A program made the translations under genes and the position numbers. The notes beneath the pieces were generated by a model, which was not told the DNA's origin, did no database searches, and saw only the letters and a list, made by a program, of their open reading frames with translations. A DNA stretch of 64,000 nt from Centruroides vittatus (lineage: Eukaryota): assembly GCF_030686945.1 (NCBI RefSeq), contig NW_027122708.1:5674248-5738247 (forward strand), given 5' to 3'. Every line of letters starts with the position of its first letter. Position 1 is the stretch's first letter. Positions 9,532-49,099 of the stretch are shown piece by piece.

Positions 9532-9571
9532 TATATATGTATGTATATATATATTTATAAAATCGAGACGA

Positions 9572-10443
9572 GTTGATGATGATAATAATAATCATAATAA
9601 TAATAATCAGTGCAGAGCCGAAACGGTTAGGAGTTGAAAGTTGAAATTTGGTACACAGTTAGGGTATGTCATGAGAACGCACACTAAGAAGGGATTTTTC
9701 GAAATACCTCCTCATGGGGGAGAGGGACAAAATTAAGGCTTAACACTTCCATCAACAATGGAAGTGTCAAGTAACAATGGAAGTGTTAAGAGAAAGCAAC
9801 GTGCAAGACGCAGATGCAGTTTTTTTAGTTTTTGCGGGAAATTGAACATATTTTTAGACCCATCTAAAAATTCTGTAGTTAGTCTGGAAACAGGGATGAC
9901 CCAATTCTTGCATTCTGCGAAAATGGGTAAGGTTGACTGTAACGTAATAATCTTCATTTTCGCTAAAACAGTTAGGAGTTGAAAGTTGAAATTTGGGACA
10001 CAGTTTGGGTACCAAATTTAAGTACCAAAGTGTTAAGTAACAATGATAGTGTTAAGTAACAATAGAAGTGTCAACAATGGAAGTGTTAAGTAACAATTGA
10101 GAACAAGAGAAAGCGACGTGCAAGATTTACGGGCTCTGGAAAAAAAAGAAAAAAGAAAAAGAGTAATATGTTAGAACATATTCGATTTTCAAATTTAAAC
10201 AGATTAGTTCGGTTTTTCTCAACTTTTCTTCTTTAGAACATTCACTGAAAATCGAATGATATAATCAGAACACATCGTGAAAATTGAACAATATTAGAAC
10301 ATTCAATTTTCAAATTCGACCTTTCTTTAGAAATACTTAGTTTGTTGATGAAATTATTAAGTTATAGTCACAAAAGAAAAAGAGTAATCTTAATTATCAC
10401 TATCGTTACTTTTGCCCGAGCAACGCCAGGCCTACCTGCTAGT
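9572..10443 (+). mobile_element. Helitron-like non-autonomous repeat, copy 2 (rearranged, with a partial internal re-duplication).
   Basis: Same 5' end, A|TCGAGACGAGTTGATGAT. The same body and minisatellite recur at 9962-10135. The same 3' end, ...CCTGCTAG|T, lies at about 10443. Confidence 0.3.
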
Positions 10444-14024: not shown

Positions 14025-14360
14025 GAATCGTGTCAAATTTGACCCTCCAAGTTTTTTGCAAGTCTCCACATTTTGAGACCTCCTGGACCCAAAAAAGGCA
14101 CAAAAATTCAATGTTTGCATGTGTTGGCATCTATTTTGCTTAATATCTCAGGATGGGGTAATGATAAAAAAAATGAAATTTGACACGATAGATTGCATAT
14201 AAACAACATTGATGCTATTGAATTTTGGTGGCAAAAGGTCAAGGGGTGGGGAGATAGAGAGGGGGTCATGTGTCATATCTTGAGTAGGGTCAGACTTAAT
14301 GATGTTATACTTTATTAGCATTTACAATTTTTTATGAAACCAATCACTACCATTAAAATT
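14025..14360. repeat. Unclassified interspersed repeat (about 340 bp), copy A.
   Basis: Shares TGTCAAATTTGACCCTC...TTTTGAGACC..., ...AATATCTCAGGATGGGG..., ...ATTGATGCTAT.GAATTTTGGTGG... and ...GTCATGTGTCATATCTT..AGT.GGGT..GACTTAA...TTACAATTTTTTA with 43325-43690. Confidence 0.6.
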
Positions 14361-14946: not shown

Positions 14947-15264
14947 TTAATGAAGTGTACTCATTGCAGGCAATGTATGTGTATTTATCATGCATGGCTT
15001 AAATGTCATGGGGGTTTCTATATAAGCTCTACCCGCACCTGTGCAGAAGGACTTCCAAGAATCTAGTTTTGCCTTCTTAATGGCCTCCTTATACTGTCTT
15101 TGGTAAGATGAGAGGTACTGCATTCGCAGTTCCTCCCTCCTTTGATCGTGACATCTCTGGAATACTCTGCACAGTCTATTGTTGTTCTGGTGCATAAGAG
15201 ATAAATCCGAATTCCACCATGGAGTTACCCGTCTTTTGTTCTTCCTCCTGGGAATGGATTTCAT
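14947..15264 (-). pseudogene. LINE ORF2 region between the endonuclease and RT domains.
   Basis: RVTPWWNSDLSLMHQNNNRLCRVFQR...YKEAIKKAKLDSWKSFC is typical of non-LTR ORF2 linker regions. Confidence 0.5.
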
Positions 15265-15545
15265 GCATGCAGAAGAGATTTGGAGAATAGCTGACTCAAT
15301 ATAGGCCTTAGCCTCAGTATGTGATACAATCCTAGATGATGGTATACCGATTCGCTGAATACTGTCTTGAAATTTGCACCAATCAGCTGCCTTGGTATTG
15401 AAAACATTCTTATTGTTCGAAGCTTCTGCATCCTGCCAATTATTGCAGCCTAGGCTACAAGTTATACACTCATGGTCAGAGAGGAAGTCAAAAATGCCTA
15501 CCTGCCAATCCTGAATAACAGAGCAGAGGCCTTTGGAACAGATGG

Positions 15546-15908
15546 TCAGATCAATCCAGGAATGACCATTAGATGACGAAAAGATTGGCGAGTATGCAAA
15601 TGCACATTAAAATCACCCAAAATTAAAAAACTACAGTTACTGAAATGAGTCACAGCTGACTCCAAGTTCTGGATGGTTTCATAGATATCTGACCTACTCG
15701 AGCAATAGACGTTGAAGATGATAATGTGTAAATCAGGAAGGCAGACCATACAAATGCAGGTAGATGAACAAAATTTTGGGTGGAAGATAATGGCCAAGGT
15801 AGGGTTAGTAACAATGACAGCCCATGGTTGTTCATCCTGGTTCTGAATGATAATGTCTTTGTTGCTAAAGCAAGCTACCCTATTCTCGCAACAATAGGGC
15901 TCCTGCAC
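15546..15908 (-). pseudogene. LINE AP-endonuclease domain fragment.
   Basis: Motifs IIFNVYCSSRSD and SFLILGDFNVHLH. Confidence 0.6.
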
Positions 15909-16129
15909 TAAAGCGATATAGTTGTTAATCTATCGGAGCTGAGAGCTGGCAGAGATTGCTCGTTCCAGATTAATCCGTACAATGCATAGTTGAGAGTTCC
16001 TACAGCAAATGTCAGTATTTCTGTTAGATGCCATAGTCTATTCTGGCAAGGAGCTGTGTTCTTGATCGAATAAAGGCAGGAGAGACTTTATTGAGCGCAT
16101 TGTGATCTATTTTCTTATTATTCTCTCTA

Positions 16130-17308
16130 ATGCAGTTCATACATTTTTGAGTTTCTGTTTTCTTATCACAATCTTTGAAGGCATGATTGCTTCCACACTA
16201 ACTGCATGTACAATCTTCTGCATCGCAATTCTTGGCGAAATGCCCAAATTTTAGGCATTTCAAACATTGATTCGATGGGAGGAAGTCTACAACACTATAC
16301 CTAGTCTACTGCAAGTTCACCTTCTCCTCTTTTAGGAGGAAACACCTGAGACCTCTGCAACCCAAGAAATGAGAGTGGTACTATGCCGTCCAATTGGGAA
16401 AAGCACCCTAATCTTCTCCAGAAATGCTTCTTTGGAATATAACACAGCAACTTGGCTGTTCTGCTCATAAATGGCATCTAAGAGCTGGTCCCTCTCAATA
16501 GATTTAGGTACTGAGATAATCTTGATCAGTGGGCGCCTCTTTTTCAGGATAACCGAACATAAACTGGAAACCTCAAACAGCATTACATAAAATTCCCACA
16601 TCTGCTGTACATCCCAAATCAACAGCAATCCCTCCTTTTTGAATATGGCATATTCTCTGAACACCTATTTTTAAGCTGTGTGGATTGATTCCAGAAGTTA
16701 GGACCCTTTCTGGTAAGCTCAGAGTCATTAGACTCAGGGTTACTGTACACCAGTACAGTGTGACAAAACTTGGAGGGTACTGAAACCGAATCCAAGGTAG
16801 AACAGGATGCTTAACAGTGTCACTATAAAACTTGGGTGTCCTGGACACCACTGACCCTGAAGCTGGTACAACCTGCTGCACTCCACGAATGGTTTCCAAC
16901 ACCTGAGATAACTGTGCCCATTCTCTCGGCATGTGCAGCAAATGCATCAGTGAGATCACCAACCACTGACCCAGATGCTGGAACTACCTGCTGCAATCCA
17001 TGAATGGCCTCCAAGACCTCAGAGAAAACCAACTCAGATCTCTCTGCATATGCAGCAAACGTGCCAGAGAGATCCCCCTTGGTGAGAAGTGAATCCAACC
17101 AAGTGTCAATGGAATCAGGAACAGAACAAGTTGACACTGTGGAACTTGCTAGATCAATCAATCGCTGGAACTGGACAGTTATAAGCCGCGAATGGGCTCC
17201 CGAGCCCAACTTCCTATTGCTATTTCTAGCAAGGTAACCCTTAAGCTCGTCGAGGAGCTTGAATGCCTCATAAAGAAAGTTTGATGACTGTCCATTGCCA
17301 TCAATCAC
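16130..17308 (-). pseudogene. LINE ORF1 (gag-like), degenerate, with internal sequence repeats and C-terminal CCHC knuckles.
   Basis: Three overlapping frameshifted ORFs. The motif LQQVVPASGSVV occurs twice. Zinc-knuckle codons lie at about 16150-16300. Confidence 0.45.
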
Positions 17309-22600: not shown

Positions 22601-23001
22601 AACTGAAAAATTAGAGATCCAAGTGCATATAATTTTCCAATTATATGCCCTTGACCCTCCATGGCATTCAGACAACTTAAGCTAAGCTTTTATCCTGGCA
22701 TGATATAGGCTGTAAATCCTCACCTAATTGTTCATGGGCAATTACATGAAAGTTTTGCCTATTTTAATGTTGTCTATTACAGAATAGTGAAATGGATGCT
22801 TGATCACACTAAAAATTTTCCATCATAAGTGAATTGTCCAATAGCAGATGAAATTAGAATTTCCAACAATTTTAAGTCCTTCCAAAATTTTTGTCTGTAT
22901 ATTATTATTATTATGTTGGGTTAAGTGAGATATACTCGGTTAACACCGGTGGCTGTGTACTATGCCGGACCAAAGTCAAGGCATAGTAACCAAAACAGAA
23001 A

Positions 23002-23411
23002 TTAAAGAAGTGTATCAGTGTGTGTGTCTGTATTCAGGAATTTTCTCACAATATGACATGTATTCAATATAGTGGCCTTCTGTAGTATGATGTATGTGTT
23101 TCTATTCAATTGTAACGTGCCCAGGCTTTTGTGTAGTGTGTGTGGTATCACACCTGTAGAGGAGAGAACAACAGGTACAATAAGCACCCTATCCATCCTC
23201 CACAGATGCCTTATTTCCTGGACAAGTTCTGTGTACTTGCTAATTTTTTCAGTGCATGCGTTTTGTATATTGTGAGTGTTGAAGTGAACTCACTCAGCAA
23301 AATTAAATCACAACAACAGGTACAATAAGCACCCTATCCATCCTCCACAGATGCCTTATTTCCTGGGCAAGTTCTGTGTACTTGCTAATTTTTTCAGTGC
23401 ATGCGTTTTGT
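23002..23411 (-). CDS. LINE ORF C-terminal tail, lying downstream of the nested PLE unit and partly duplicated in tandem.
   Basis: The minus frame reads NTHNIQNACTEKISKYTELAQEIRHLWRMDRVLIVPVV (once in each tandem unit), then LSSTGVIPHTLHKSLGTLQLNRNTYIILQKATILNTCHIVRKFL to a stop near 23002. EK..KY supplies the missing K of the PD..D..EK motif. NTHNI is repeated on both sides of the insertion. Confidence 0.5.
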
Positions 23412-23456
23412 ATATTGTGAGTGTTGAAGTGAACTCACTCAGCAAAATTAAATCAC
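23167..23456. repeat. Tandem duplication of 2 x 145 bp spanning the left junction of the PLE unit.
   Basis: The two units at 23167-23311 and 23312-23456 are near-identical, with one G/A difference. Each contains the TSD 14-mer, the 28-bp leader and the first ~5 bp of the inverted repeat (atcacaa). The duplication therefore post-dates the insertion. Confidence 0.85.
23412..23425. repeat. Putative 14-bp target-site duplication (left copy), ATATTGTGAGTGTT.
   Basis: Identical 14-mer occurs at 24712-24725. On the minus strand both copies encode NTHNI of the interrupted LINE ORF. Confidence 0.6.
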
Positions 23457-23806
23457 AAACAACCAAACACCTTAAGTTGCTGAGAAAAATTTAATAAATA
23501 ACAAACGTTTTCAGCCAAATCTGTTGGCCATCATCAGGTTAAACAAATTCGAATGCAAACACAAAATGGAACAAAAAATTTAAATACAAATAAATAAAAT
23601 AACGGATAAAATATACATATAAGAAAGTAAAAATTAAATATAAATAACAAAAATACTGTATATAAAAAATATGTATAGGTTAAATAATAAACTACACGAA
23701 ACTCTAATAAATGCAAGAAGTGCATTTATCAATAAATTATACGAAATTCTGACAAATACAAGATATGCAGTGATAACAAAACCAAGGCATTAAATTAAGA
23801 GCGGAT
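23454..23806. repeat. Left arm of the 353-bp inverted repeat flanking the GIY-YIG ORF.
   Basis: Reverse complement of 24359-24711. The two 63-aa pseudo-ORFs at 23534-23725(-) and 24440-24631(+) are identical, which confirms near-100% identity over at least 192 bp of the arms. Confidence 0.9.
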
Positions 23807-24370
23807 ATGATAACCACACTAATCAAAAACTACAGGAATAACAAAACAAAAGCTCAAGGAGGGGATTTCCGCAAATTCACAAAGTTCACGTATGACAGAA
23901 AGAAAGAAGCTATCATGAAGGAAATCTCAGCCCGCAAAAATACCAAGTTAATTTTCAAGAGGGCTCCCAACTTGTACAAATTATTAAGGAACGACAAAGA
24001 CCGTATTGATAAAGAAAGAATGGCTGGAGTGTACAAAATTCCTTATGAAAACCAAGAACTAGGCATTAATAAAAACTACATTGGAGTTACTAATAGAAGC
24101 TTAGGGATTAGATTGAGGGAGCACAAATACAACATCAGCAAAAGATCTAACGCCACAATTCTATCTCAGATGGCACAGGTTGAAGGCTCGGTAGTCAAAT
24201 GGGGTGAAGCAGACATCATTAAATCTGTACACTCACCGACTTTAGCGTTTTGCGCCGAAAAAATTGAAATATTTAAGAGCAGATTACATAATGCCTGCAT
24301 TAATGCCAGGGATGCTGAAGGGTTGCCTTCGGCATGGAAATATTTAATTAAGAGGTTTGATAGCTCTTAA
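23807..24370 (+). CDS. GIY-YIG endonuclease domain of the Penelope-like-element type (187 aa). The start codon is probably fortuitous.
   Basis: The catalytic motif is GVYKIPYENQELGINKNYIGVTNRSLGIRLREH (GIY..YIG..R..EH). The upstream linker reads LIFKRAPNLYKLLRND. The C-terminal region reads ATILSQMAQ...IIKSVHS...AEKIEIFK...INARDAEGLPSAWKYL. Together these match the conserved layout of PLE endonuclease domains. The CxxC linker finger is absent. Confidence 0.8.
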   Translation: MITTLIKNYRNNKTKAQGGDFRKFTKFTYDRKKEAIMKEISARKNTKLIFKRAPNLYKLLRNDKDRIDKERMAGVYKIPYENQELGINKNYIGVTNRSLGIRLREHKYNISKRSNATILSQMAQVEGSVVKWGEADIIKSVHSPTLAFCAEKIEIFKSRLHNACINARDAEGLPSAWKYLIKRFDSS

Positions 24371-24711
24371 TTTAATGCCTTGGTTTTGTTATCACTGCAT
24401 ATCTTGTATTTGTCAGAATTTCGTATAATTTATTGATAAATGCACTTCTTGCATTTATTAGAGTTTCGTGTAGTTTATTATTTAACCTATACATATTTTT
24501 TATATACAGTATTTTTGTTATTTATATTTAATTTTTACTTTCTTATATGTATATTTTATCCGTTATTTTATTTATTTGTATTTAAATTTTTTGTTCCATT
24601 TTGTGTTTGCATTCGAATTTGTTTAACCTGATGATGGCCAACAGATTTGGCTGAAAACGTTTGTTATTTATTAAATTTTTCTCAGCAACTTAAGGTGTTT
24701 GGTTGTTTGTG
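24359..24711. repeat. Right arm of the 353-bp inverted repeat flanking the GIY-YIG ORF.
   Basis: Reverse complement of 23454-23806. Its terminal ~20 bp overlap the last codons and stop of the truncated LINE ORF. Confidence 0.9.
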
Positions 24712-24725
24712 ATATTGTGAGTGTT
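24712..24725. repeat. Putative 14-bp target-site duplication (right copy), ATATTGTGAGTGTT.
   Basis: Pairs with 23412-23425. Confidence 0.6.
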
Positions 24726-25557
24726 TGGAATGGCTATGTCTATAATGTATGTGATTTTATTGTGTTTGTCAATGAGTGTGATGTCTGGTCTGTTGTGGTA
24801 AATTGTTTTATCTGTGATTATGGCTCTGTCATAGTACATTTTGTGCGTGTTGTTTTCCAATACTGTCTGCAGAATGTATTTGTAGTATGATTCGTGGATG
24901 TCTACTAATTTGTGTTTCTTTGCAAGCTCTTGGTGTATTATATTTGCTACTTGGTTATGTCTGTGTAAATAATCTGTCTGTGCCAAGAGCTTGCAACCAG
25001 AGGTGATGTGTTGTATAGTTTCTGACATAATGTGACATTTTCTGCATGTGTCATTTGTGAGTGTTGCATCTTTGAGTATGTGTTTTCTGTAGTTTTTAGT
25101 ATTTATGATCTGATCCTGTATGGCAATCATGAATCCTTCCGTCTCCCCAAAGAGGCATCCCCGAGCTAACCAGCTGTTTGACGCAGTTTTGTCAACAAAT
25201 ATCCTGGGCCAGATCATAAGGATGCCTGCCATGGAGTGCCTTTCGAGCCCACGATTGCTTAATGGTGTCTATGCTTTTTATATGTTGTGTTGTGTCCATA
25301 TGATGTGAGTGTAAGTTTAATGGTGTGTTATTCGAGTCTGCTAGAGTTACTGCTTTATGTAATTGTGATATTTCTTGTTTTTCATAAAAAAACTCTCGCA
25401 GTGACTGTATTTGTTTGTAATGAAGGTTAACTATGTCAATCAGGCCACGTCCGCCATCTTTACGTGGAAGGATTAATCTTTCTGTGGCAGATTTAGGATG
25501 ATGATGTTTATGCTTAGTAAGTGTTGTTCTTGTTTTCCTTTGGAGTTGCTCAAGATC
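24712..25557 (-). CDS. LINE ORF continuation: thumb, CCHC zinc-finger motif and the N-terminal half of the PD-(D/E)xK restriction-like endonuclease.
   Basis: The frame resumes directly after the 25558-26352 insertion (IHWTHTDLEQLQRKTR..LILPRKDGGRGLI). The listed 180-aa ORF 24690-25232 contains CRKCHIMSETIQHITSGCKLL..YLHRHNQVANII and RPDITLIDKHNKITYIIDIAIPNTHNI, then runs 7 codons into the inserted inverted repeat and stops. Confidence 0.7.
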
Positions 25558-26352
25558 TGTGTGAGTCCAATGTATTGTGGCCGTCGGCCATGATATTGTA
25601 TATTTTGTATATTTTATATTGAATTAGTCTTAGATTTTCTTTGTTCCTTTGTCTAACTCTTTCTAGAACTTTCTTTGTCTAACTCTTTCTAGAACTTTCT
25701 TTTGTCTAACTCTTCCTAGAACTCTCTTTGTCTAACTCTTTGCCCTTGGGGGAGGATTATCTTTCCCTCAATAGTAAGAACAAAAGAGGGAGTGAGGCCC
25801 TGAAGCAAAACAGACAGAAAGAGTGCGAGTCTGGGTTGGAATCCCGAAGAGGTAGGAGCTGAAAAGGAGTGCTCCAGAAAGGGAGAAGGGTGATCTAAGA
25901 GGATAAAGTGCAGAGAGAGATCATCGAGGAAAGACGACTCAGTCTGAAAGAAAAAGATTATAGACGAAAGATCTATAAGGAAAAGGGCTACAAACGTAAC
26001 AAAAGAGAGAGATCCGAAGTTGTTCCCCACCAAAAGACACATCGCAAAGAAACCCGGGTATTTCTACTACTTTTCTTATCTTTCCTTATTTCTTCTATTC
26101 TTTCAATTTCTTTTAGTTTTAAGTTAGTATAAGTTAGTGTAAGTGAATACGGTCCTCGTCAGATTGTCGCGTGTGTGCAAGATAACTGTTTTTTGAGGAC
26201 AAATATTTAATGCCTATATATATATTAAATTCTGGAAGTTGTAAAGTTGGGATCCTATGTAAAGAACCTGTTCAGAGAGAATAAAACTACTTTGTATTAA
26301 GTTTTATTTTGTACCATTTCGCTCGCGGGATCGTGTACCTCTTGTTACGAAC
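25558..26352. mobile_element. Solo-LTR-like repeat, copy 1, nested inside the LINE ORF between the RT and thumb domains.
   Basis: Starts TGTGGCCGTCGGCCATG and ends ..CGCTCGCGGGATCGTGTACC..GTTACGAACACCA. It carries TGTG..CACA-type termini, and GTAT on both flanks is a possible 4-bp TSD. It shares about 60-70% identity with two further copies at 49532 and 57971. The LINE frame is continuous across it (ILWC|IHWTH). Confidence 0.45.
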
Positions 26353-28966
26353 ACCATAGTATAACTCCAAAAGAATATGTGAGTACTGGGATGACATATG
26401 TGTTTATTGCTTTAACTGTGTGTTTTGCATTTAACTGTGTTCTGAGAATAGCATTTAACCTACTTTGGTATTCTTTAATTAATCTTTGCTTTATTTGTGT
26501 ATGTTCTGTTAGTTTGGCCTGTTGGAATCCTAAATACTTGTAGAACTCGCCCTCTTCCATGGATTCAATAATGTCTCCATTTCCAAGCGCAAAATCTTCT
26601 TTCTTCAGGATTCCTTTTTCTATGTGAACTGTTTTGCATTTATCTAGGCCAAATTCCATTTGTATGTCCTTGGTGTATGAATGTGTGATTTGTAGGAGTC
26701 GATGAAGTTGTTTTTGTGTGGATGCATAAAGTTTTATGTCATCCATGTACATGAGATGTGACAGTGTATACTGTGTTGTTTTTTCGTGTCTGATATTGTA
26801 GCCATATTGTGTGTTGTTTAACATGTTGGATAATGGATTCAAGGCTAGGCAGAACCAGAGAGGACTCAAGGAATCTCCTTGAAAAATTCCTCGCCTAATA
26901 AAGATTTGGTTTGTTTGTATGGAAGTGTTATGAACCCTGAGATGTAGTGTTGTTCTCCAGTGCTGCATGGTGTTTTCGAAGAATGTAACGAGTGATGGAT
27001 GTATTTTGTACATGTGTAGAATATGTAGCAGCCAACTGTGTGGAACACTGTCGAATGCTTTTCTGTAGTCTATATATGCCATGTGTATGTTTCTGTGTTG
27101 TTTGTGTGCTTGCCGTAGAATGACTGAATCTATGAGTAACTGTTCTTTGCATCCCCTGTGGTTTCTACGGCCACCTTTTTGTTGTTCCGTTAGAATGTCG
27201 TGTTCTTCAACATGTTTGTATATTTTGTTTGCAATACAGGATGTCAATAATTTGTAGAGTGTTGGAAGACATGTAATTGGTCTGTATTGTGTGGGGTCTG
27301 TGGTATTGTTGTTTTTAGGTTTCATGTAGGTGATGCCTTGAGTAAGAAAATTTGGCATGTCTTGTGGATTGATGATGATGTGTGTTAGGTGTTTAGCTAG
27401 TTCCTGGTGCAGTGATGTAAACTTTTTGTACCAGAAATTGTGAATGTTGTCTACACCAGGTGTCTTCCAGTTGTGTGTTCTGTTAACAGTGTATTGGAAA
27501 TCACGTATGCTTATTTCAACACAGGGCATAGTTGGTATGTTGTGCAAGTTTTTGTTCTCCTCCTCGATCCAGCCTGCTTCAGCATTGTGCGTGACAGCAC
27601 TGGACCAAAGAGAAGACCAATATGTTGTGAGTTCTTCTTCTGTTGGTGTGCCACTGTGCTGTGTATCAGTGTTTGCTTTGTTATTAATTTGTCTGTAAAA
27701 GAGTTTTTCATTGTTTGTAAATAATTTATTTTGTTGTTTTCGTAGTGTACATGTTTTGTATCGTTTGAGTCTACGTGCTTTGGCAGCAAGTTGTTGTTTT
27801 AGTGTATCAATGTATTCTGTAATGCGTGTGTTGTGACGTTCATGTTTTGTGTGTGTTTTTATTTTCTTGAAAATGTTTTTGAGCTGTTTCCTTAATTTGG
27901 GTGTTATGTTGTTTTTAGTGTATTGTGTCAGCCTGCCTAATTGCTGTCTAATGTCATTTATTTGTGTTTCTATTCTTCTCTGCCAGGCAGGCTTGTGATA
28001 GAATTGTATTTTCTGTGTATTTGTCTGTGATTGTACTTTCAGTCCATGGTGTGTCACTACTGTGACTGCCCCAGCATAAACTAATGTATGAATGTCTGCG
28101 AGTGTAGAAATTGAATGAATGTAGTGTGGTAGTAAGTGAGTGTTTACATAATTTAGTGTTTTTCCTATTTCCTTTGACGTGTTGATTTTTGGTATTCGTG
28201 GTCTTTGTGTGGGATCTGTGCCTGTATATTTAGTGAGTGTTTCCTGAAATATAAGTGAGAGCGTATTAACTAAATCCATGTCTATGTTATCAGTGATGGA
28301 TGAGGAAGTGTCTGTAGTATCATTAGTGCTAATTGTTGTATGTGTGTTATTATCAATGTTTGTTACTGGATTATCCTGACAGGTTACATGATCTTCATTA
28401 ATGTTAGATGTTTCTGTCTGTTGATGTATTTGATCAGCAACCTGTTGTTTGATAAGTTCAAGTGTTGTTTGTGGAATAAGGTTGTTGTGTATAATTGTTC
28501 TTTTTTGATCAACAACCCTTTGTTCGGTGACAGTGAGATGAGGATATTGTTGTGTGAATCTATGGTATAGTTGTTGTCTGTATGCTGTCATGTTTGTTTC
28601 GAGTTTTGTGATGGTGTAGTAAGTACGGATGATAAACTCGTTCATTTCTATCGTCCATTTCATCCGTTGGCGTGGTTTTCCAGCCTTTGTGGTCTGTGGA
28701 TGCATTGCCACAGAAACACCAAGGCTGGGTTGGTTCCTCACATCTGTTGAGGGCATTGCAGTAGCCATGCTTGGGCCGGTGCTGCTTTCGCCACCGGTAA
28801 CCAAGGGAGACTGTGGCCTATTTTTCGAACGTGAGCCTCTGCCTAACCCACGAACGCGGACCTTGTTAACCCGGGCGACGTCCGAGCCGGTATCACATTT
28901 GGATCTGGTTACTACCATGATACGTATCTCCACAGAATGTGGGTGTGTGGTCACTCTTAGCTTCAT
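26345..28966 (-). CDS. LINE ORF: N-terminal region plus reverse-transcriptase domain. The stop codon at this point belongs to the nested LTR-like insertion.
   Basis: 873-aa ORF carrying RT motifs (KAFDSVPHSWLLHIL, FQGDSLSPLWFCLALNPLS, YMDDIKLY). No AP-endonuclease domain is present. A 5' UTR of about 130 bp precedes the ATG. Confidence 0.85.
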   Translation of the reverse strand: MKLRVTTHPHSVEIRIMVVTRSKCDTGSDVARVNKVRVRGLGRGSRSKNRPQSPLVTGGESSTGPSMATAMPSTDVRNQPSLGVSVAMHPQTTKAGKPRQRMKWTIEMNEFIIRTYYTITKLETNMTAYRQQLYHRFTQQYPHLTVTEQRVVDQKRTIIHNNLIPQTTLELIKQQVADQIHQQTETSNINEDHVTCQDNPVTNIDNNTHTTISTNDTTDTSSSITDNIDMDLVNTLSLIFQETLTKYTGTDPTQRPRIPKINTSKEIGKTLNYVNTHLLPHYIHSISTLADIHTLVYAGAVTVVTHHGLKVQSQTNTQKIQFYHKPAWQRRIETQINDIRQQLGRLTQYTKNNITPKLRKQLKNIFKKIKTHTKHERHNTRITEYIDTLKQQLAAKARRLKRYKTCTLRKQQNKLFTNNEKLFYRQINNKANTDTQHSGTPTEEELTTYWSSLWSSAVTHNAEAGWIEEENKNLHNIPTMPCVEISIRDFQYTVNRTHNWKTPGVDNIHNFWYKKFTSLHQELAKHLTHIIINPQDMPNFLTQGITYMKPKNNNTTDPTQYRPITCLPTLYKLLTSCIANKIYKHVEEHDILTEQQKGGRRNHRGCKEQLLIDSVILRQAHKQHRNIHMAYIDYRKAFDSVPHSWLLHILHMYKIHPSLVTFFENTMQHWRTTLHLRVHNTSIQTNQIFIRRGIFQGDSLSPLWFCLALNPLSNMLNNTQYGYNIRHEKTTQYTLSHLMYMDDIKLYASTQKQLHRLLQITHSYTKDIQMEFGLDKCKTVHIEKGILKKEDFALGNGDIIESMEEGEFYKYLGFQQAKLTEHTQIKQRLIKEYQSRLNAILRTQLNAKHTVKAINTYVIPVLTYSFGVILWCS

Positions 28967-31202
28967 TTCTCCCCATAGACCTTACTGGCATGGGTGTCCC
29001 TACCAGGAGCTTGTGCTCCAGCCTGCATTGCCCTATGGATCAGTAAAATTACTGGGCTCTCCCACCACGACGAGGTGGTGACCATGGGAGAGTTATTATT
29101 ATTATTATTATTATTACTTTTTTTAAATTCTAGCATGATATTCTTTCAAGTTGGATAGTTTGGATTTAAAAATGGATTTTTTCCCATCAGCTCAATAAGG
29201 TTTTTCATTACAAGCACCATAACTTTTGAACAGAAAACATTTCCTATTGACTGTTGGTTGATGACATCTAGCTATAAGCATTTGTATCTGTCAAAAAATA
29301 GAATGTGATCTGTTTGTTCTGTTCTGTGATTTTGATGTCCATAAATGGGTTGGTGCTAGGCAAACAGTCTACACAAATCCATTTTGCTGGATGAAGTTGT
29401 ATAATGGAAACCAGTCTTTACAGTACTACATTATTAAAAAGCAAATGTTTCACTTAATCACCCATGAGTATTTAAAATGAGTGATTAGGTGAAAATATTT
29501 ACTTGGGCAATCATGTGAGGATTTATTATATATATAGTGTATTGCATATATTTATAAATTACATACAAAACCAAGCCTGACATATAGTCATTATAATTAA
29601 TTAGTGACATTATAGGTAGATTAAAATCTGGCTGTATTATTTGTTGGACTTTGTTTTATACAGGAGTATATCTAGGATAGCATGTGCTCTGGGTGCTAGG
29701 TAGGGGACATTGAGAGGAGAGGGTGTGTAAAAGGAAAAGCAGACTAGTGAAGGCCATGTCATGTATTGTCAATATCTCAAACATCCAAACCTGTTTTATA
29801 TGTAATAAAATGATAATTCTGGACTGAACAGCTCTGGAAAAAGTTTAGTTTAGTTCTTGTTTTTTGAATACTAATGATTTGAACCCAAACTATAACTAAA
29901 GTGATAATTTGTCTGTATCAGTTAAAATGGTAATTGTCCAAGGAACTTGGTGCCATAGTGATAATTCGATAAATAGACAGTGTAGTTCTCTTTATTTTCA
30001 TAAAAAATAAGCTCCAAATAGTGTAGAAATGTTGATACTATGTAAAATAAAAAAAATCAGTTGAATTTTTATACTCATATTTTGGGAGATGGCATAGATA
30101 TCACATTTTGTCACTACTTTTTTGTTAAATATATTGTGTATGTAGTTATTATATATTTTATAAAGTATGAAAATAATTATTAATGATAATAATACAATAA
30201 ATAAATATTTTAAAATAATATAATTACTTTAGTGTGGAATTAGAAGTTAGATGAAGAGCTACAACAAAATATTCCAAACTATTTTCTGTACTTTCTTCTA
30301 ATTTAATTCTTTGACTTACAGCAGAAATTAAAATTTGTTTACTTTCAGCTTGACTACAAACTGTAGTTATGACAGATCCCATTTGCCACTAAAAAATTTT
30401 CATATATTTTAATTAAATACACACAAAAATTAAAATTTAATTAAGGGGCCATCCATAAATTACGTAAGGACGATTTTGGCCATTCTAGACCCCCACCCAC
30501 CCATGTAAGAAAACTGTGTAATATTTTTTATGATCCTCCTCCCCTTACCTATCTTGTGTAATATTTAGGCATGATTTTATGGAAAGATTTTAACAAAAAA
30601 ATTATTTTATGAAATCCTAAAAACCTTATGGCCCAAAATATATAATTATTAATTAGTTAATTAATATGTACTATTATTTATAAAAGATTTTATGTGAACA
30701 AATTTAAAAATATAAAAATTTAATGAATTTGAATGAACAATTTATTTTAAAAACTTTATTTTTTAATTATTAACAATCTTTTTATCATCATCATTAATCA
30801 TTATCATAATATTCATTTTTATATTAATTTTAATTTTCACAAAAGGACTTTGACAGATTGACTAGCTAATGCACGCATAAACAGAAACGGCATACAAAAT
30901 AAAACAAGAGAATAGAGAGAAACCCCTTTCCGTTGCCATAATGGTTACATCTTGGCTAAGGCCAAGAAAATAAACTACATGCTGCTAAAATGTGCTAGGT
31001 GCACCTGGGGACTAAATCATAAAGCTTATAAAACTCTATATAATGGGACAATACAAACAATGGTACTTTACATGGCCTGTAACTAGTAAAAATTCAGTAG
31101 CAAGTAAATTACTCTCTTCAAAGACAGTTTGCCATCAGAATTTCAAAGTGCTGTAGAACTGTTTCTACTAATGCCATTCTGATTCTAGCAGAATGCCTTC
31201 CT

Positions 31203-31613
31203 TTGCCACTATGTATTGTAGAAAAGGTTCTAAACTACTACATCAGAACTACAAACATCAAAGCTCAACAACAGTCTCTACTCCTATCTATGGCTGTTCA
31301 TATGCTACCATATTGCAATTACCCTATTTCTGATCACCTTGTAAACAAGGTTATCCCCAAAGTACATTTGGTGCCATCTGCTTCCTCCATGGATAGCCAT
31401 GCAGACATTAATATCTACATAGATGGGTCCAAAAGCCCTGTTCATGTCTGCTCAAATATCTGTATCTTCCTCCAAACTGACATATTTTGCCCAAAATATG
31501 TTAGAAGGTACAGATACCATACTGGCATACTAGGAAATGAAAAAGCCAACTTTGAAGCTAAGTCAGCTGCAAAGGACACTGATGGACTACACTCACATCC
31601 CTCTCCCAGGTAG
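31203..31613 (+). pseudogene. LINE ORF2 RNase H domain fragment.
   Basis: IYIDGSKSP...HTGILGNEKANFEAKSAAKD. Confidence 0.6.
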
Positions 31614-31645
31614 CAAGCCTTAAAAATTATATTCATGACAACGCT

Positions 31646-32053
31646 ATGCAAAAGTGGAATCACTGGTTGAGCAGTAAAACTGGTAGAATAACAAGATTTT
31701 ATTTTCCTGGTGTTGAATGCAGGTTCTCATCACCATTTAAAGATTTAATGTTTGCTACTGCTCAACTACTTACTGAGCATGATAATTTTAGAAGCCACCT
31801 GGTGATGTATAACTGGGCAGAAACTACCTCTTGCTTTTGCTCTACAGAAAACCTAGACACTGTTGACCACATAATCTATCATTGTCCAATTTACGATCAA
31901 GATAGACTTATTCTGAAATTAGAAATCTTTATGCTTGATTTCAGGTGGCTATGTCCACTCGATAAGCTTGTTCAGAAACCACTGTTTGATGCTTTTTATG
32001 ATTATGTTCAAAAAACATGGAAGAAAAGACTATTTATAATTTCTAATATCTAG
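31646..32053 (+). pseudogene. LINE ORF2 C-terminal domain fragment.
   Basis: LTEHDNFRSHLVMYNW...CFCSTENLDTVDHIIYHCPIYDQDR. Confidence 0.55.
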
Positions 32054-32759: not shown

Positions 32760-33180
32760 TAAGTAAATAGATATGCTGAATGTCAGCAAATGCATGAGGC
32801 AATATTAATTCTGAAAAACACATTGCCACATTAGAGAAGGGTCTTTTTCTAATATTCTCCAGTGGGCATATGGACAAAGCATCCACTGTGTTCATGGATG
32901 TGGGAGCTCCTTGTCACACAGGCAAAAAGATCCAGAATTGGCTGGCAATACAAGGTATCTGCAAGCTTCCATGGGGCAGTCAGTCACCTGACATGAATCC
33001 CATCAAACATGTCCGGAATCTGCTGGATCATGCAGTGTGATGACATCCACAAAAACCTGCTTCCTACAGAGAACTTTTAGATAGATTGTGTGCTTAATGG
33101 GCTAATATTCCACAGGCCAAAACAGCAGAACTTGTTGATTCCATGTCCAATTGGATTAAGGCTTTGCAGTTTTAATACAC
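32760..33180 (+). mobile_element. Tc1-like transposase fragment (C-terminal part, with stops).
   Basis: FMDVGAPCHTGKKIQNWLAIQGICKLPWGSQSPDMNPIKHVRNLLDHAV...RELLDRLCA.WANIPQAKTAELVDSMSNWIKAL (compare QQDNAPxHTSK...WPxQSPDLNPIExxW). Confidence 0.55.
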
Positions 33181-36300: not shown

Positions 36301-36616
36301 TACTTCAACCTCTAGGCAGAGGTTAAAACGTGCATAAAATTGTCTTATAATGCATGTCTTGATAATGCAATTTCTTATAATGTGGAATGTATCCCCACAT
36401 TATACTGGACTCCACTGTATTAATACTTTGTAATATTTTGGTCTATTATGTTTGCATTGCTCTTCTATTCTAAATGTATAAAATTGATTATATTTTCTCA
36501 AAAATTTGGAACTAAAATAATAATCTTTAAAATTTATTTTAAAAGCTTTTAATATTGTATATATTATTATAATTTATATCAAAAATATTTTAATTATTAT
36601 TATTAAACGTTACTTA

Positions 36617-36914
36617 CTTCTTTTTCGGTATTATAAATTAGAGGATTCCGCTCGTCACTCAAATTAAATGACCAAATGATTAGTTTACCAGTAATATCAC
36701 AACTAAATCCAATTTGTTTATTTGGCAAAAATCCAATTCCTGTAATTTTTCCTTTATGATAGCTGCATAGCTGAGAGTCTGTTTCATCAGTGCTGGGTAA
36801 TTTCCAAAATCTTACACTTTTATCTGATGAACATGAAATAAGAGTATCTTTTGGTGTAGCACATGAAGATGTTACAGGACCTGTATGACATTCCAATGTT
36901 GCCACTAATGGTTT
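36617..36914 (-). CDS. WD40-repeat protein gene, internal exon (about 298 bp).
   Basis: aaatttag|AAACCATTAGTG... to ...GAAAAAGAA|gtaagtaacg. It encodes KPLVATLECHTGPVTSSCATPKDTLISCSSDKSVRFWKLPSTDETDSQLCSYHKGKITGIGFLPNKQIGFSCDITGKLIIWSFNLSDERNPLIYNTEKE. The listed ORF 36603-36905 overlaps it. Confidence 0.7.
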
Positions 36915-42150: not shown

Positions 42151-42160
42151 ACATACAACT

Positions 42161-43690: not shown

Positions 43691-44519
43691 ATTTATGTTA
43701 GCTACAAACTAATTCAAAAATTGAGTAATTTAGTAAACTAGAAGAATTTCAAATCAATTCTGATTGCAATTTGAAATCATGAAAAAAGATTATTTTACAA
43801 ACCAAGAAATATTTTGAAAGCTGGAATACTTTGAAAACTATAAACTTTTTCAAAGTTATTCAAAAAAGTTTATAGGTTTTTGGTATCATAAGCTTAATTT
43901 CAACAATAAGACAGAAGTTTAATAACATTGATATGTGTAACAATAAATGATGATTGACAACTTAACCAGATTATACTTCTCTAACAGATAAAGAATATTG
44001 TTTGACTTATAACCTGCCCTCCTTCCCTATTCCTATTGTGATGTTTGTTGCGACAAGTACGTGGTCCTGCGAGTGGAATGGTACAAATAAATACTTGTTA
44101 GACTTTCCAACACAAAGTAATTTATTATCACCTTGAACAGGTTCTTTTTCTTTTAGATCCCAACTCTACAAATGCTTTCTGTACACACAGCCGTTAAATA
44201 TTGATCTAACAAACAACAGGTTATTTGAGAGTGACAATTATATGTGGGCCGAAACTTATAACTAATACTTATACTACTTATTAATGCCAAATTCATTTCT
44301 GATTTATAATCATTATATCCAAATTTAGCCCGTTCATTTATGGCAGTTGTGAGAGTATATCTGCTTAATAATGGGTTTTCAATTGATGTGTATATTTGTA
44401 TATCTATACCTTGCCGGGGTTGCAATGGCCGACTGAGTGCCTTGAGTGGATGTTTCTGGCCAAAGGTGCAGTGAGTCTCCAGTAGGCACCGTAATAACCA
44501 TTAATGGTTATATCTTAAA

Positions 44520-44978: not shown

Positions 44979-47900
44979 CTAGAAATATATTTATTAAAAA
45001 ATTTAATACAAATTATCAATTGTAATTTTAAATATTTTCTTTATAAAATTGTCTTATAATTGTAAAAAGGGCAGAAAAATATTTAAATCTAAGTAATTAA
45101 TACTAAAACATCTGACAGTTGACAGTGATATAAGCAACATCATTCTGTTTTTTTTTTCTTTTTTTACTGATCCATTTTATGTATTTACTCATCAAAGTAT
45201 AAACTTTTCTTAACTTATTATGGCCTTAAAATAAATTCAGTTAAGGATGGGCATACTTCAGAACTGTGCTTCTCGAAAATTTGCATCAAATCAAACTTCC
45301 TATATCGTAATCATGAATGATCATTGGAAATGATAAAAAGAAATGTCCTTTTATTAAATCAGAGACACACATCTAATATATAACTGTTTTAAAAGTTGAC
45401 TAAGTTACAATCACTAGTAGTCATACTGCTAATGACTATGTATTAAAAAAAAAAAAGCTTTTCTTACAATCATTTTTAAACCAAAACTCTGGAAATATGA
45501 TCATGTGATACAGAAGAGACTAGTCATTTATGAAAAATATTGTGCTATATTACTTTTATATACTGACCTACAGTAAACATTTGCCATGATGTAATAATTT
45601 AGTAGTAGTTGATCTATCTTATCAAGATGTTCAATATAGGATGAGTTAAATACAGAAGCTTGTGGCATCACATGACTAAAGTAGTATATAAACAAAATCT
45701 CACTATTTATTGATTCTTGCAGAACAATAAGAACAGGATTTGAGAGGAGCACAAAGCTGGAGTTTATGTAGTATCAGCTAGGAATATATTGCTGCCCATT
45801 AAAATTGCTATATCATGAAGGTGGCATGTAACAAATGCAAAATTTGCATGAAAGGTACAACATGCTGGATGGATGCTCTGTATCTCAAAATTACCTGTCA
45901 ATTTAATCATGACTTCTTTCCATTATACTGTATGTTTACAATAAATATGATTGTGCTATTTGCTTTCCTTCCTGGTGCAGCACTTTTAATTAATGGCCAG
46001 CAGTGTAGCAACTTAGAAGTGTAGCCTAATGGGTTACACTAGCAGGAACCTTGCGCAGAGACTGTATGAACATAGATAAGATGTGAACACAGGTAAGAGT
46101 AGTGTTAGCTTGTTTTGCAACTGCAGAAAATACAGAAATCATGTGGAATCAAGCTAGAATAATCAGGAATATTCAGATCGCCCAAGCACGCAGCAATAGC
46201 CAAAAGAACAGAAATATTTGGGCAAAAGTTCAGGGATTATGCCTGAATGCAAATGATGTGGAAACCGCCTGTACAGCTTGAAAGTTTTTACTAACACTAA
46301 GATGTAAACTTAAAATATGCCTCTGCAGCTATCATAGATTTTTTTTATTTGTAGTTTATTTTCATTAGTTTATATTAGTGATGGAACAATACCAAAATTT
46401 CTCCCAATTTCAAATCTTTTTTGAATACTTTATATAACTTATTTTTGTTCAGAAAAATTAAGGATTTACATTATGAACATGGTACATACATTAATTAATA
46501 AACTGTGATAGTTACGAGCAGTACGAAGACAAAGAGACGAAATGAGAGGAACAAAACACAATGAGTTTTATTTCCTTGCTCGTAAACAAACAGGATACAG
46601 TGGATACCAACAAGTACCTTTCCCACCGATAATATCTTAGAGCAAATACTCCGACCCACCGACAATATTCGAGAGCAAATACCGAAACTATTACAATAAA
46701 ATTTCCCGACAATATTACCTTAAAATATAAACCTTAATTATAATATACAATAAGATTTCCCGACAAGATCGCTTAAGTTATGAACTAAAACTAGTATATA
46801 AGATAAAGAAATAAAAGAAAGAGGATGTCAAGAATATACAGGAAAGCGGCTACCCACGACTAGATGGTGATGACGAAACTACTGGCCGAAGTATTACGGT
46901 GAGAACGAGGATCGGCGAAGACTTTCACTCCTTTTTATTTTCTCCAAAATACTGCCGTTCAAATCGATCTTCTCTCTATCTTCTCTTGATACTAGGTATA
47001 CTCGGGAGACTCCACTAGCCTTCCTTCCTACTCGAGTTCTCGCCTCAGAATGACACACGTGTTCCCCTTTCTTCCCTCAGGGCTGCACTCCCTCTTTTGT
47101 TTTCAGGGGTGAGTCATCAAACTCACTAAGGAAGGGTAAGAACAATAGATACGTTCCAGGAAGAATGGACAAAGAGGTTAGAAAGAGAGGAATAAAGGAA
47201 ATAAAGAAAGTATAAAATATAAAAACGATACAATTACATAAAAAATATACACCTTAAGCATGGCGTGTAGCCACAAAACATTATGTTTAAGAATGGAAAA
47301 CAATTGGGAAATACAGAATCAATCTTTCAAAAGAAACCTGAAAATTTTCCATTTATATGCATGCTTTCATTGTGTATTATAAAATAAATTTGTAATCTTA
47401 TTTCAGATAAAGTTAATATTGCATCACTATTCCCAAAGAAGTTACAGCAAATTCCCTTTTACTCAAAGAATTATCATCATGTCACCTAGGGTTGCCATCT
47501 TTGGAAACAGTTTCATTGGTCAATGCAATGACCAGGGGAGGCAGAAGGTAAATGAGATGATGCACTTCTTTTTTACATGCTTCTTGCAATTGGCATGCCT
47601 CATAAATGCTTTAATTCTGTTGTATTTAACACTATATGAGGTTTGGCAAATGATGCAACAAGCTGAACAAATATCACTGTCACAAGTTTAACCAACTTTT
47701 AGATTCATTCACTTAAGCCAGGTTTTCCTAAATGTACAATTTCTTTTCCTTCAAAAAAATTTATGCAGACTCAGACAAATATCTAGACTGACTCATCTTA
47801 AAAAACTAAATTTTTATAACTCAAAACAGCAGCAGACTTAGCACAAACACTTATTTTTTACTTAGAACTGCATAAATTGCATTTGAAAATTTAACAAAAC

Positions 47901-49099
47901 AATACACTAATAAAATATCATATTTTCATGTATGTTACCTGCAGGTTATTTGTGTTTAAAAGACATGATGAAAGAGGATGTGGATTATGCAATAGCAAGT
48001 GTTATATGCAGTGTGTAGTGGCTCAGATATATCAAAATATATTGAGCTTAGGGGAGGGGTAATAATTTGAGAACTTTACAAAATTATAATGAGAAAATTG
48101 ACAAACATGTTTAATGACAACAAAGACACGCATAATGAATTAACACTATAACCAACACCACTTCGTTACTGTGTTTAATTGATTAACATTGTTGAGGTGA
48201 CTCAGACATGAATATTAATTTCACTCGCCATAATGGATATATATAAATGTATTGTACATATATTCACATGACTGATAACACGTGTAGCCGAATCCTCTTG
48301 CCACTGATTCGGGGACCTCTCCCTCTGACGATTCTCTTCCTTACAATCCTTTAATTCAAACCCTATGTGTTTGTAGAAAATCACAACTTTATAAAAATAA
48401 GTCATGTTAGGTTCCATTAATGCATATCTATTCACCTTATCATCCTCCATACTGATTTGTCTGTGATCCGTGGTCGATGGACTTGGATTATCTTTTCTTA
48501 AGAGACGTTTGCTCCTTCCTTTGTCCTAGCTGAGCTACACCATGACTCCACACTCACCTGTCTAGTCCCAAAGTTCTTCCGAAAACGTCCAAGGGGAGGA
48601 AGACGAAAGGAAAGTCTCCAACAGGTTGAACCTTCACTTTTATACCTCCTGCCATCTCTGGAGAATTACCTGTCACATGACTTGGCAGTTGACCAATTAA
48701 CAGTATTTTCACCGTACAACCCAGAATAGGATGGAATGGGACAAAAGCAAAAACACGCTCGTAACACAACTCAAAACCCAACATAAAATAAACGAAAATG
48801 CAATTACACACATGATATAGATATACAATAAAAAAATTTATTCTTTCACAATTATAGTAGCACAGCACAAGTGGCTTACTTATGGTAAGGCAAGTAGTGT
48901 TTGTGCCCTGGGCACCACTAAGCACTTTAATAAAAAGTCAGATAAGCTATTCTTGGATAGTGATAAAATAATTTTCTTCGGGTATATGACCTGTCTTTGA
49001 TTATCATGGGTGAAAAACACTATGATGGATGGATTGTTAAACCATTTATTTAAATTATTAGGTAATAATACAGTGCTAGGAAAAACTGTAAAACATCAT

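What the first reader, a model, noticed from the sequence alone, without database searches (positions are those of the whole stretch)
25558..26352. An LTR-like repeat family of about 0.8 kb (TGTGGCCGTCGGCCATG ... CGCTCGCGGGATC...ACGAACA) has three copies, two of them nested in other TEs
The copies lie at 25558-26352 inside the LINE RT/thumb junction, at 49532-50358 inside a hAT transposase remnant, and at 57971-58790 in intergenic sequence.

All three share the same palindromic 5' end, an internal CCCGGGTATTTC block and a TTAAGTTAG..GTAAGTTAG motif. They have TG..CA-type termini and plausible 4-bp TSDs (GTAT; GGTT).

The copies are 60-70% identical, so the family is old. It is probably a solo LTR, although an unusual SINE is not excluded. 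No internal gag/pol copy lies in the window.
Basis: seen in the sequence. Interest (0 to 1): 0.5.

Follow-up and report, generated by a model that had tools for sequence, protein, structure and literature searches.

The report
Solo LTRs of an insect-type retrotransposon
The 0.8-kb repeat is real and behaves like the leftover long terminal repeats (solo LTRs) of an LTR retrotransposon group, an ordinary kind of genomic parasite remnant, though the window holds five copies rather than three and at least one inserted recently.

Summary
The repeat family exists. A profile built from two copies recovers three more with E-values from 1e-15 to 9e-35, and a reversed-sequence control finds nothing. There are four full-length copies of 772-828 bp and one 3' fragment, not three copies.

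Corrected coordinates:
- c1: 25576-26358 (+)
- c2: 49536-50359 (+)
- c3: 57972-58799 (+)
- c4: 46504-47275 (-)
- c5: 44037-44285 (-), 3' fragment only

c1, c2 and c4 have TGTG...CA(C/T)A ends and perfect 4-bp target-site duplications (GTAT, GGTT, GTTT).

Removing c1 plus one duplication restores a 1000-aa LINE ORF2. Removing c2 in the same way restores a hAT transposase remnant. Both then align to homologues without a gap across the junction, which proves the boundaries.

The copies have no poly(A) tail, no pol-III head, no long inverted ends and no internal terminal repeats. Each has one AATAAA 63-95 nt from its 3' end. This is the anatomy of solo LTRs, most like the insect Ty3/gypsy lineages that make 4-bp duplications.

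The definitive proof, a paired-LTR element with gag-pol, could not be sought because the genome is not in any reachable collection.

c1 interrupts a nearly intact LINE, so it inserted recently, and the 47-62% identities probably reflect subfamily divergence.

Verdict: ordinary, low interest.

The parts
25576..26358 (+). Copy c1, full length (783 bp), TGTGGCC...ACACCATA. It is inserted antisense into LINE ORF2.
   Evidence: removing 25576-26362 gives a 1000-aa open LINE ORF2 that aligns to P0001 without a gap across the junction.
25572..25575 (.). Left target-site duplication of c1 (GTAT). The right copy is at 26359-26362.
25576..25591 (+). 5'-terminal motif TGTGGC-N5-GCCAT. It contains the palindrome core TGGC-N5-GCCA.
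   Evidence: four matches in the window, all at the 5' ends of copies. Shuffles predict 0.01 for the full motif and 0.29 for the core.
25644..25741 (+). Tandem 26-27-nt repeats (TTTGTCTAACTCTTTCTAGAACTTTC) in the 5' (U3-like) part of c1. c2, c3 and c4 carry a single unit here.
   Evidence: (family D11), alignment.
26053..26064 (+). Conserved internal block CCCGGGTATTTC in c1. A pyrimidine run and the TTAAGTTAG-TATAAGTTAG block (26119-26145) follow it.
26280..26285 (+). AATAAA, the putative polyadenylation signal (R region), 79 nt from the 3' end of c1.
   Evidence: all five members have AATAAA at the aligned position, 63-95 nt from the 3' end. It is the only one in four of them; c4 has a second, 436 nt from its 3' end.
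26309..26358 (+). Conserved 3' (U5-like) block of c1: TTGTACC-N6-CTCGCGGGATC...ACGAACACCATA.
   Evidence: (family D17).
49536..50359 (+). Copy c2, full length (824 bp), TGTGGCC...GAACATCACA. It lies inside a hAT transposase remnant. TSD GGTT at 49532-49535 and 50360-50363.
   Evidence: the translated flanks hit DUF4371/Dimer_Tnp_hAT proteins and align without a gap across the excision junction.
57972..58799 (+). Copy c3, divergent full-length copy (about 828 bp) with 5' end TGTGGCTGTCAGCCAT. Its 3' end is decayed and no TSD is recognisable.
   Evidence: E = 8.6e-35 against a profile built from c1 and c2 only.
46504..47275 (-). Copy c4, a full-length but distant member (772 bp), TGTGGCTACACGCCATG...CTATCACA. 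TSD GTTT (plus strand AAAC at 46500-46503 and 47276-47279).
   Evidence: (E = 1.2e-15 with the c1+c2 profile).
44037..44285 (-). Fragment c5: the last ~240 nt of an LTR (TAAGT block, AATAAA, TTGTACC...ACATCACA). It is cut off on its 5' side, where a different, tRNA-like repeat begins.
   Evidence: (E = 6.3e-23).
24690..28966 (-). Host LINE (ORF2 with reverse transcriptase) interrupted by c1. Given for context only.
49060..50903 (+). Host hAT-superfamily transposase remnant (frameshifted) interrupted by c2. Given for context only.

Best explanation
These are solo long terminal repeats left by a group of related LTR retrotransposons. The group is most likely Ty3/gypsy-type, from a lineage whose integrase makes a 4-bp staggered cut.

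Proposed history: a full element was reverse-transcribed into DNA bounded by two identical LTRs with TG...CA ends. Integrase inserted it, duplicating 4 bp of target. Later, recombination between the two LTRs deleted the internal gag-pol region and one LTR, leaving a single LTR still flanked by the original 4-bp duplication.

Within each LTR:
- The variable 5' two-thirds would be U3, the promoter/enhancer part. It holds the terminal TGGC-N5-GCCA palindrome, a TTCC(T/A)GGAA-type box that is amplified in c1, and a purine-rich stretch.
- The segment around the conserved AATAAA would be R.
- The conserved last ~50 nt (TTGTACC...CTCGCGGGATC...CACA) would be U5.

Shown here: the repeat family, its exact ends, the 4-bp duplications, insertion into pre-existing TEs, and the lack of A-tails, TIRs and pol-III heads.

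Inferred: the integrase-mediated origin, the LTR-LTR recombination, the U3/R/U5 assignment and the lineage.
For: - Family membership is statistically solid. A profile built from c1 and c2 alone finds c3 (E = 8.6e-35), c5 (6.3e-23) and c4 (1.2e-15), and nothing in the reversed window.
- The ends are TGTG...CACA in c2 and c4, and TGTG...CATA in c1.
- Three of three intact copies have perfect 4-bp TSDs at boundaries fixed by the alignment.
- Excising c1 plus one TSD restores a 1000-aa LINE ORF2 that aligns gap-free to P0001.
- Excising c2 plus one TSD restores a hAT remnant that aligns gap-free to P0037, P0039, P0043 and P0045.
- All five members carry AATAAA at the homologous position, 63-95 nt from the 3' end.
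- The length, 772-828 bp, lies within the LTR range of insect Ty3/gypsy lineages with 4-bp TSDs. In Culex these are Mdg3 at about 264 bp, Mdg1 at about 430-444 bp and Osvaldo at mostly 997-2137 bp. Mag-lineage elements there mostly make 5-bp TSDs (PMC3286476 Table 1).
- There is no tRNA or any Rfam family, no terminal direct repeats inside a unit, and only 4-7 matches in the first 12 nt of the ends compared as inverted repeats.
Against: - No paired-LTR element, PBS, polypurine tract (PPT) or gag/pol sequence is present in the window. The ORFs tested with Pfam and a motif scan found none, but neither check was exhaustive.
- The source genome could not be searched.
- A TATA-like run in c1 is not conserved in c2 or c5, so the promoter assignment is weak.
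- Four and a half copies in 33 kb with no internal fragment is a high solo density.
Confidence: 0.8

Rival explanations
1. These are LTRs of a non-autonomous LTR element (LARD/TRIM-like, or a small-RNA-derived type such as Cassandra, Helenus or Ajax). Such an element has no gag-pol of its own and is mobilised in trans by an autonomous retrotransposon. The copies seen here would be its solo LTRs.
For: The anatomy is the same as in the best explanation. The copy density is high and no coding fragment lies nearby. Non-autonomous LTR families are described in insects (PMC3286476 Table 2) and more widely (PMC10886601).
Against: No small-RNA-like module is present in the LTR, since Rfam and ARAGORN are both negative. 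The window offers nothing that separates this from ordinary solo LTRs.
Confidence: 0.1
2. The 0.8-kb unit is itself the complete mobile element and moves as a unit. It could be a DNA transposon or MITE of a superfamily that makes 4-bp TSDs and has TGT...ACA ends (for example Ginger-like, which uses a gypsy-type integrase), or an unknown integrase-dependent element.
For: All four full copies have similar length (772-828 bp) and complete ends. The TSD is a fixed 4 bp. No internal region is seen anywhere in the window.
Against: Only 4-7 of the first 12 terminal nucleotides match as inverted repeats, and 7-11 of 30, so there are no real TIRs. The unit is strongly asymmetric, with one polyadenylation signal near one end. 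The TSDs are not TTAA. These features fit an LTR rather than a cut-and-paste element.
Confidence: 0.05
3. It is an unusual SINE or another non-LTR retroposon copied by LINE machinery.
For: LINEs are abundant and recently active in the window.
Against: There is no A-rich or simple-repeat tail at any 3' end. The TSDs are a constant 4 bp rather than variable. No tRNA, 5S or 7SL head is present. The 5' ends are exact in four copies.
Confidence: 0.01

Closest known systems
Solo LTRs of insect Ty3/gypsy (Metaviridae) retrotransposons from lineages with 4-bp TSDs (Mdg1, Mdg3, Osvaldo)
   Same: TG...CA termini, 4-bp target-site duplication, LTR length of several hundred bp, a variable U3-like part with tandem repeats, and a polyadenylation signal near the 3' end. 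The Culex Mdg1, Mdg3 and Osvaldo elements in PMC3286476 Table 1 mostly show 4-bp TSDs (a few Osvaldo rows are 5-6 bp), with LTRs mostly between 264 and 2137 bp.
   Different: No internal region, PBS or PPT has been seen, so the lineage and even the superfamily (BEL/Pao, Copia or a retrovirus-like group remain possible) are not established. The 0.8-kb length falls between Mdg1 and Osvaldo. No sequence comparison with curated TE libraries (Repbase, Dfam) was possible.
Non-autonomous LTR elements (LARD, TRIM, Cassandra/Helenus/Ajax)
   Same: They leave solo LTRs with identical hallmarks and can reach high copy numbers without coding sequence.
   Different: TRIMs have much shorter LTRs, and a whole TRIM would show terminal direct repeats inside the unit. 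None were found. Cassandra-type LTRs contain small-RNA gene modules, and none were found.
Nuclear factor I palindrome TTGGC-N5-GCCAA
   Same: The first 16 nt of every full copy contain TGGC-N5-GCCA with a free 5-nt spacer. The consensus string is given in PMC3610271.
   Different: This is a sequence resemblance only. The outer bases differ (GTGGC...GCCAT), and no binding data exist. The motif may instead be part of the integrase recognition end or have no function.

Membership tests
LTR retrotransposon (solo LTR) | Termini 5'-TG...CA-3' with a short inverted repeat | tested here: met
   c2 and c4 have TGTG...CACA. c1 has TGTG...CATA, one transition away.
LTR retrotransposon (solo LTR) | Target-site duplication of fixed length, 4-6 bp, directly flanking the repeat | tested here: met
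   GTAT, GGTT and GTTT at three of three intact copies. Two are verified by gap-free restoration of the interrupted LINE and hAT reading frames. c3 is decayed, with no TSD visible.
LTR retrotransposon (solo LTR) | Full-length relatives exist: two such repeats in direct orientation flanking PBS, gag-pol and PPT | not testable with these tools
   None is in the window. The source genome is absent from the searchable collections.
LTR retrotransposon (solo LTR) | U3-R-U5 organisation with a promoter and a polyadenylation signal | tested here: inconclusive
   AATAAA is conserved in position in all five members. The TATA-like run of c1 is not conserved. No transcript data are available.
Ty3/gypsy lineages with 4-bp TSD (Mdg1/Mdg3/Osvaldo) | Phylogenetic placement of RT/RNase H/integrase | not testable with these tools
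   No pol sequence is available. Only TSD length and LTR size agree (PMC3286476).
SINE / non-LTR retroposon | Pol-III head derived from tRNA, 7SL or 5S | tested here: not met
   There are no Rfam matches at gathering score and no ARAGORN hits anywhere in the window.
SINE / non-LTR retroposon | A-rich or simple-repeat 3' tail and TSDs of variable length | tested here: not met
   The 3' ends are ...CACA or ...CATA, followed directly by the 4-bp TSD.
TIR DNA transposon / MITE | Terminal inverted repeats of about 10 bp or more | tested here: not met
   Only 4-7 of the first 12 nt and 7-11 of 30 nt match between the 5' end and the reverse complement of the 3' end.
TRIM (terminal-repeat retrotransposon in miniature) | Direct terminal repeats within the unit, flanking a PBS/PPT core | tested here: not met
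   Self-comparison of c1, c2 and c4 shows no terminal direct repeats. Only c1 has a local 26-27-nt tandem array.
Helitron | 5'-TC...CTRR-3' ends, a 3' hairpin, insertion between A and T, and no TSD | tested here: not met
   The TSDs are proven and the ends are TG...CA. The palindrome sits at the very 5' end, not in a sub-terminal 3' position.

The most novel reading that the evidence does not exclude
The 0.8-kb units might not be recombination leftovers. They could be a self-contained, very abundant element that is mobilised as a single LTR-like unit by a gypsy-type integrase. Its invariant terminal TGGC-N5-GCCA palindrome would then serve as the recognition or host-factor (NFI-like) tethering site. 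The window evidence does not exclude this, because no internal region, PBS or PPT was seen for any of the five members.
Probability: 0.04. Interest if true: 0.55.

Novelty: new member of a known kind. Interest (0 to 1): 0.12.

Why it matters
It matters little beyond annotation. The corrected boundaries give a clean seed for masking an LTR group that seems common in this genome, with about one copy per 13 kb in this window. The nesting order gives a relative timeline: LINE first, then c1; hAT first, then c2. c1's position inside a nearly intact LINE predicts that a recently active full-length element with c1-like LTRs still exists in the genome. Two copies (c4 and c5) lie in the same orientation as exon-like WD40-repeat ORFs on the minus strand and carry AATAAA. 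This could matter for transcript termination if that gene is real.

Tried and rejected
1. Searching public DNA for relatives:
- A metagenome scan with TGTGGCYGTCRGCCAT returned at least 120 GC-rich, apparently bacterial loci. No fetched locus matched the family profile, so these are chance hits.
- Two viral-contig scans used the U5 and R motifs. They also gave only chance hits.

2. Reaching the source genome through proteins:
- The LINE ORF2 has no hit above 52% identity. The best named hits are Lepidoptera at 41-46%.
- WD40-like exons found nothing.
- The genome is therefore not in the protein or contig collection, and the planned sampling with the look-up of encoding contigs was dropped.

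3. A literature search for the terminal 14-mer found no papers.

4. RNA structure:
- Whole-unit folds of c1, c2 and c4 have z-scores of +0.27, +0.43 and -0.41, so there is no global structure.
- I first read the 5' palindrome as a co-varying hairpin (GGCCG/CGGCC against GGCTG/CAGCC). In c4 the spacer is not palindromic. The simpler description is fixed half-sites, TGGC and GCCA, with a free 5-nt spacer.

5. A coding function for the purine-rich centre was rejected. No ORF is shared between copies in frame or position.

6. Pfam on single ORF pieces around c2 did not detect hAT. A stitched translation searched against the large protein set did.

An exhaustive six-frame Pfam scan of the window was too costly, and a crude motif scan replaced it.

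8. The sequence TGTGGCATTAGGTGCCATC at about 44707 (-) looked like a fifth 5' end. Its spacer is 7 nt, it is not matched by the profile, and it lies in a different, tRNA-like repeat. I rejected it as a family terminus.

Full report
**1. The observation**

The window is eukaryotic and 68% A+T. Reading the three stated regions and aligning them confirms a shared architecture:
- a 5' end TGTGGC-N5-GCCAT
- a T/C-rich stretch of about 150 nt
- a purine-rich stretch of about 300 nt
- the block (C/T)CC(G/A)GGTATTT
- a pyrimidine run
- a TTAAGTTAG/TAAGTTAG block
- a conserved tail: AGTTGGGATC...AAGAACC...AATAAA...TTGTACC...CTCGCGGGATC...CA(C/T)A

To avoid circularity I built a profile from c1 and c2 only. 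It finds c3 at E = 8.6e-35, the 3' fragment c5 at 6.3e-23 and the distant full-length copy c4 at 1.2e-15. It finds nothing in the reversed window.

The motif TGTGGC-N5-GCCAT occurs exactly four times in 64 kb, only at the 5' ends of the four full copies. Shuffles predict 0.01 occurrences.

Global pairwise identities:

| Pair | Identity |
|---|---|
| c1-c2 | 62% |
| c1-c3, c2-c3 | 52-53% |
| c4 with c1, c2 or c3 | about 47% |
| c5 with c1 / c2 | 70% / 66% |

**2. Exact boundaries**

| Copy | Coordinates | Strand | TSD |
|---|---|---|---|
| c1 | 25576-26358 | + | GTAT |
| c2 | 49536-50359 | + | GGTT |
| c4 | 46504-47275 | - | GTTT |
| c3 | 57972 to about 58799 | + | none recognisable |
| c5 | 44037-44285 | - | none (3' fragment) |

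The termini align across copies, which fixes the boundaries of c1, c2 and c4. c3 has a decayed 3' end. c5 is only the last ~240 nt.

Two boundaries are proven independently by empty-site reconstruction:
- Deleting c1 plus one TSD copy joins two minus-strand ORFs into one 1000-aa LINE ORF2. Its sequence ...IPVLTYSFGV|IHWTHTDLEQLQRK... aligns without a gap to the best homologue, P0001 (...IPILTYSFGIIKWTHTDIKHIE...).
- Deleting c2 plus one TSD copy gives ...KKHIADENFRDTG|LTAKEEMARIMKGT... This aligns without a gap to four proteins of the DUF4371/Dimer_Tnp_hAT type, for example P0037 (...KKRMADENSRDAGLTTKEEMERVMKGT...).

So two copies are indeed nested in a LINE and a hAT remnant, and the 4-bp duplication is real.

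**3. What it is**

These features together are the anatomy of an LTR:
- TG...CA ends
- a fixed 4-bp TSD
- a 0.77-0.83-kb unit
- an AATAAA at the homologous position 63-95 nt before the 3' end in all five members, the only one in four of them (the background rate is 2.4 per kb per strand)
- a variable 5' part with a tandemly amplified 26-27-nt box in c1 only
- a conserved terminal ~50 nt

The alternatives were tested:
- SINE or non-LTR retroposon: there is no tRNA or any Rfam family, and no A-tail.
- TIR transposon: the two ends match at only 4-7 of the first 12 nt.
- TRIM: there are no terminal direct repeats inside a unit.
- Structured RNA: whole-unit folds are no more stable than shuffles.
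- Coding sequence: no ORF is conserved between copies.
- Helitron: excluded by the proven TSDs.

The best explanation is therefore solo LTRs. An integrase inserted a full element and made a 4-bp staggered cut. LTR-LTR recombination later removed the interior.

In the Culex table of PMC3286476, 4-bp TSDs go with the Mdg1, Mdg3 and Osvaldo lineages of Ty3/gypsy, whose LTRs there are mostly 264-2137 bp. Mag-lineage elements mostly give 5 bp. This makes a Ty3/gypsy lineage with 4-bp TSDs the most likely parent, but that is an inference from two characters only.

**4. What could not be shown**

No paired LTRs, PBS, PPT or gag/pol are present in the window. ORFs of 120 aa or more are LINE pieces or have no recognised domain, a stitched translation of shorter pieces identifies a hAT remnant, and a GIY-YIG-like motif is visible by eye in several ORFs. 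A motif scan found nothing suggestive.

The genome could not be reached:
- DNA pattern scans of metagenome and viral collections gave only chance hits.
- The LINE has no relative above 52% identity in the protein collection. Its named hits are mostly Lepidoptera at 41-46%.
- The WD40-like exons have no hit at all.

The organism is therefore unknown, and the LINE suggests only an insect-like host. Curated TE libraries were not available.

**5. Age**

However, c1 interrupts a LINE whose ORF2 is still open over 1000 codons, with a single frameshift further on. A neutrally decaying 3-kb ORF does not stay open for long, so the LINE copy is young and c1 is younger still.

c1 should therefore be close to its source sequence. 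Most of the 38% difference from c2, and the ~53% difference from c4, must reflect divergence between subfamilies or related families rather than decay in place. This is an inference. It predicts near-identical c1-like LTRs, and probably an intact element, elsewhere in the genome.

**6. The 5' palindrome**

The conserved core is TGGC-N5-GCCA. The spacer varies: CGTCG, TGTCA, TACAC. It is the same string as the core of the nuclear factor I consensus TTGGC-N5-GCCAA (PMC3610271).

I first read the c1/c3 difference as a compensatory change in a hairpin. c4's spacer is not self-complementary, so the evidence for a hairpin is one event only.

The motif could be a host-factor site, part of the integrase recognition end, or nothing. 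This is an open detail and does not change the classification.

**7. Verdict**

This is a real but ordinary feature: four full-length solo LTRs and one fragment from a diverged LTR-retrotransposon group, with corrected coordinates and proven 4-bp TSDs. It is a new member of a known kind at most, and it may already be in TE libraries that I could not consult. Interest is low.

Noticed in passing
window 23452-24713: A perfect 351-nt inverted repeat (arms 23452-23802 and 24363-24713, 100% complementary, 560 nt apart) encloses a 187-aa ORF (23807-24370, +). The ORF has a GIY-YIG-like motif (GVYKIPY...NYIGVTNRSLGIRLREHKYNI), as in Penelope-like element endonucleases, but Pfam gave no hit. One arm overlaps the 3' end of the LINE that hosts c1. 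This could be a recent inverted duplication or an assembly artefact.
   Followed up: partly
window 1-171 (-) and an ORF in the ~52-54 kb region (exact coordinates not determined): Two further short ORFs carry the same GIY-YIG-like signature (GVYRIPL...EYIGTTTRSLKIRLAEHKY and GVIYRLQCTCEILNYVGETKRKLKVRMSKH). They suggest several Penelope-like element remnants in the window.
   Followed up: no
window 44268-44800: Next to LTR fragment c5 lies a different repeat. On the plus strand it has a tRNA-like segment with box A/B-like motifs by eye (...TAGCGTAACTGG...GGTTCGAGCTC...). It is flanked by two ~86-100-nt direct repeats 85-90% identical (44268-44367 and 44698-44797). ARAGORN and Rfam do not call it, and it has no other copy in the window. 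It is possibly a SINE with a duplicated tail.
   Followed up: partly
window 36606-36914, 43003-43179, 44870-44990 (all -): These exon-like ORFs have WD40-repeat signatures, for example SQDCTVKLWN and SCSSDKSVRFWKL. The first has an AG/GT-bounded exon shape. A search of 5.8 billion proteins found no homologue. c4 and c5 lie in the same orientation between or around them.
   Followed up: partly
window 22900-23200 and 62172-62456: A dispersed repeat of at least 300 nt occurs in two copies 86-91% identical (families D8, D10, D14). A 145-nt unit is duplicated in tandem at 23167-23456 with 99% identity (D3).
   Followed up: no
window 13970-14334 and 43271-43668: Another dispersed repeat occurs in two copies 71-82% identical over about 370 nt (families D12, D16, D18, D20). 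It has related inverted pieces at 5123-5204 (I4).
   Followed up: no
window 8633-10443: A complex tandem or segmental repeat with a period of about 900-1350 nt. It contains 34-nt sub-repeats (CAACAATGGAAGTGT...) (families D2, D4, D7, D9, D15, D19).
   Followed up: no
window 55532-55889; also 41795-42161 and 5990-6554: Short hairpin-like inverted repeats: 135 nt at 96% with an 88-nt loop, 87 nt at 92%, and 57 nt at 93%. They resemble MITEs or foldback elements (I2, I3, I7).
   Followed up: no
window 14950-17308 (-), 31101-32050 (+), 32798-33037 (+): Other TE remnants lie here. A second LINE has a weak sub-threshold Pfam match to an endonuclease domain and CCHC knuckles by motif scan. A non-LTR tail has a weak sub-threshold Pfam match to zf-RVT and an RNase H-like segment by eye. 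A Tc1/mariner-like DDE fragment was identified by eye. The hAT remnant's best named relatives are from very distant animals: Limulus, a manta ray, an ant and a lizard.
   Followed up: partly
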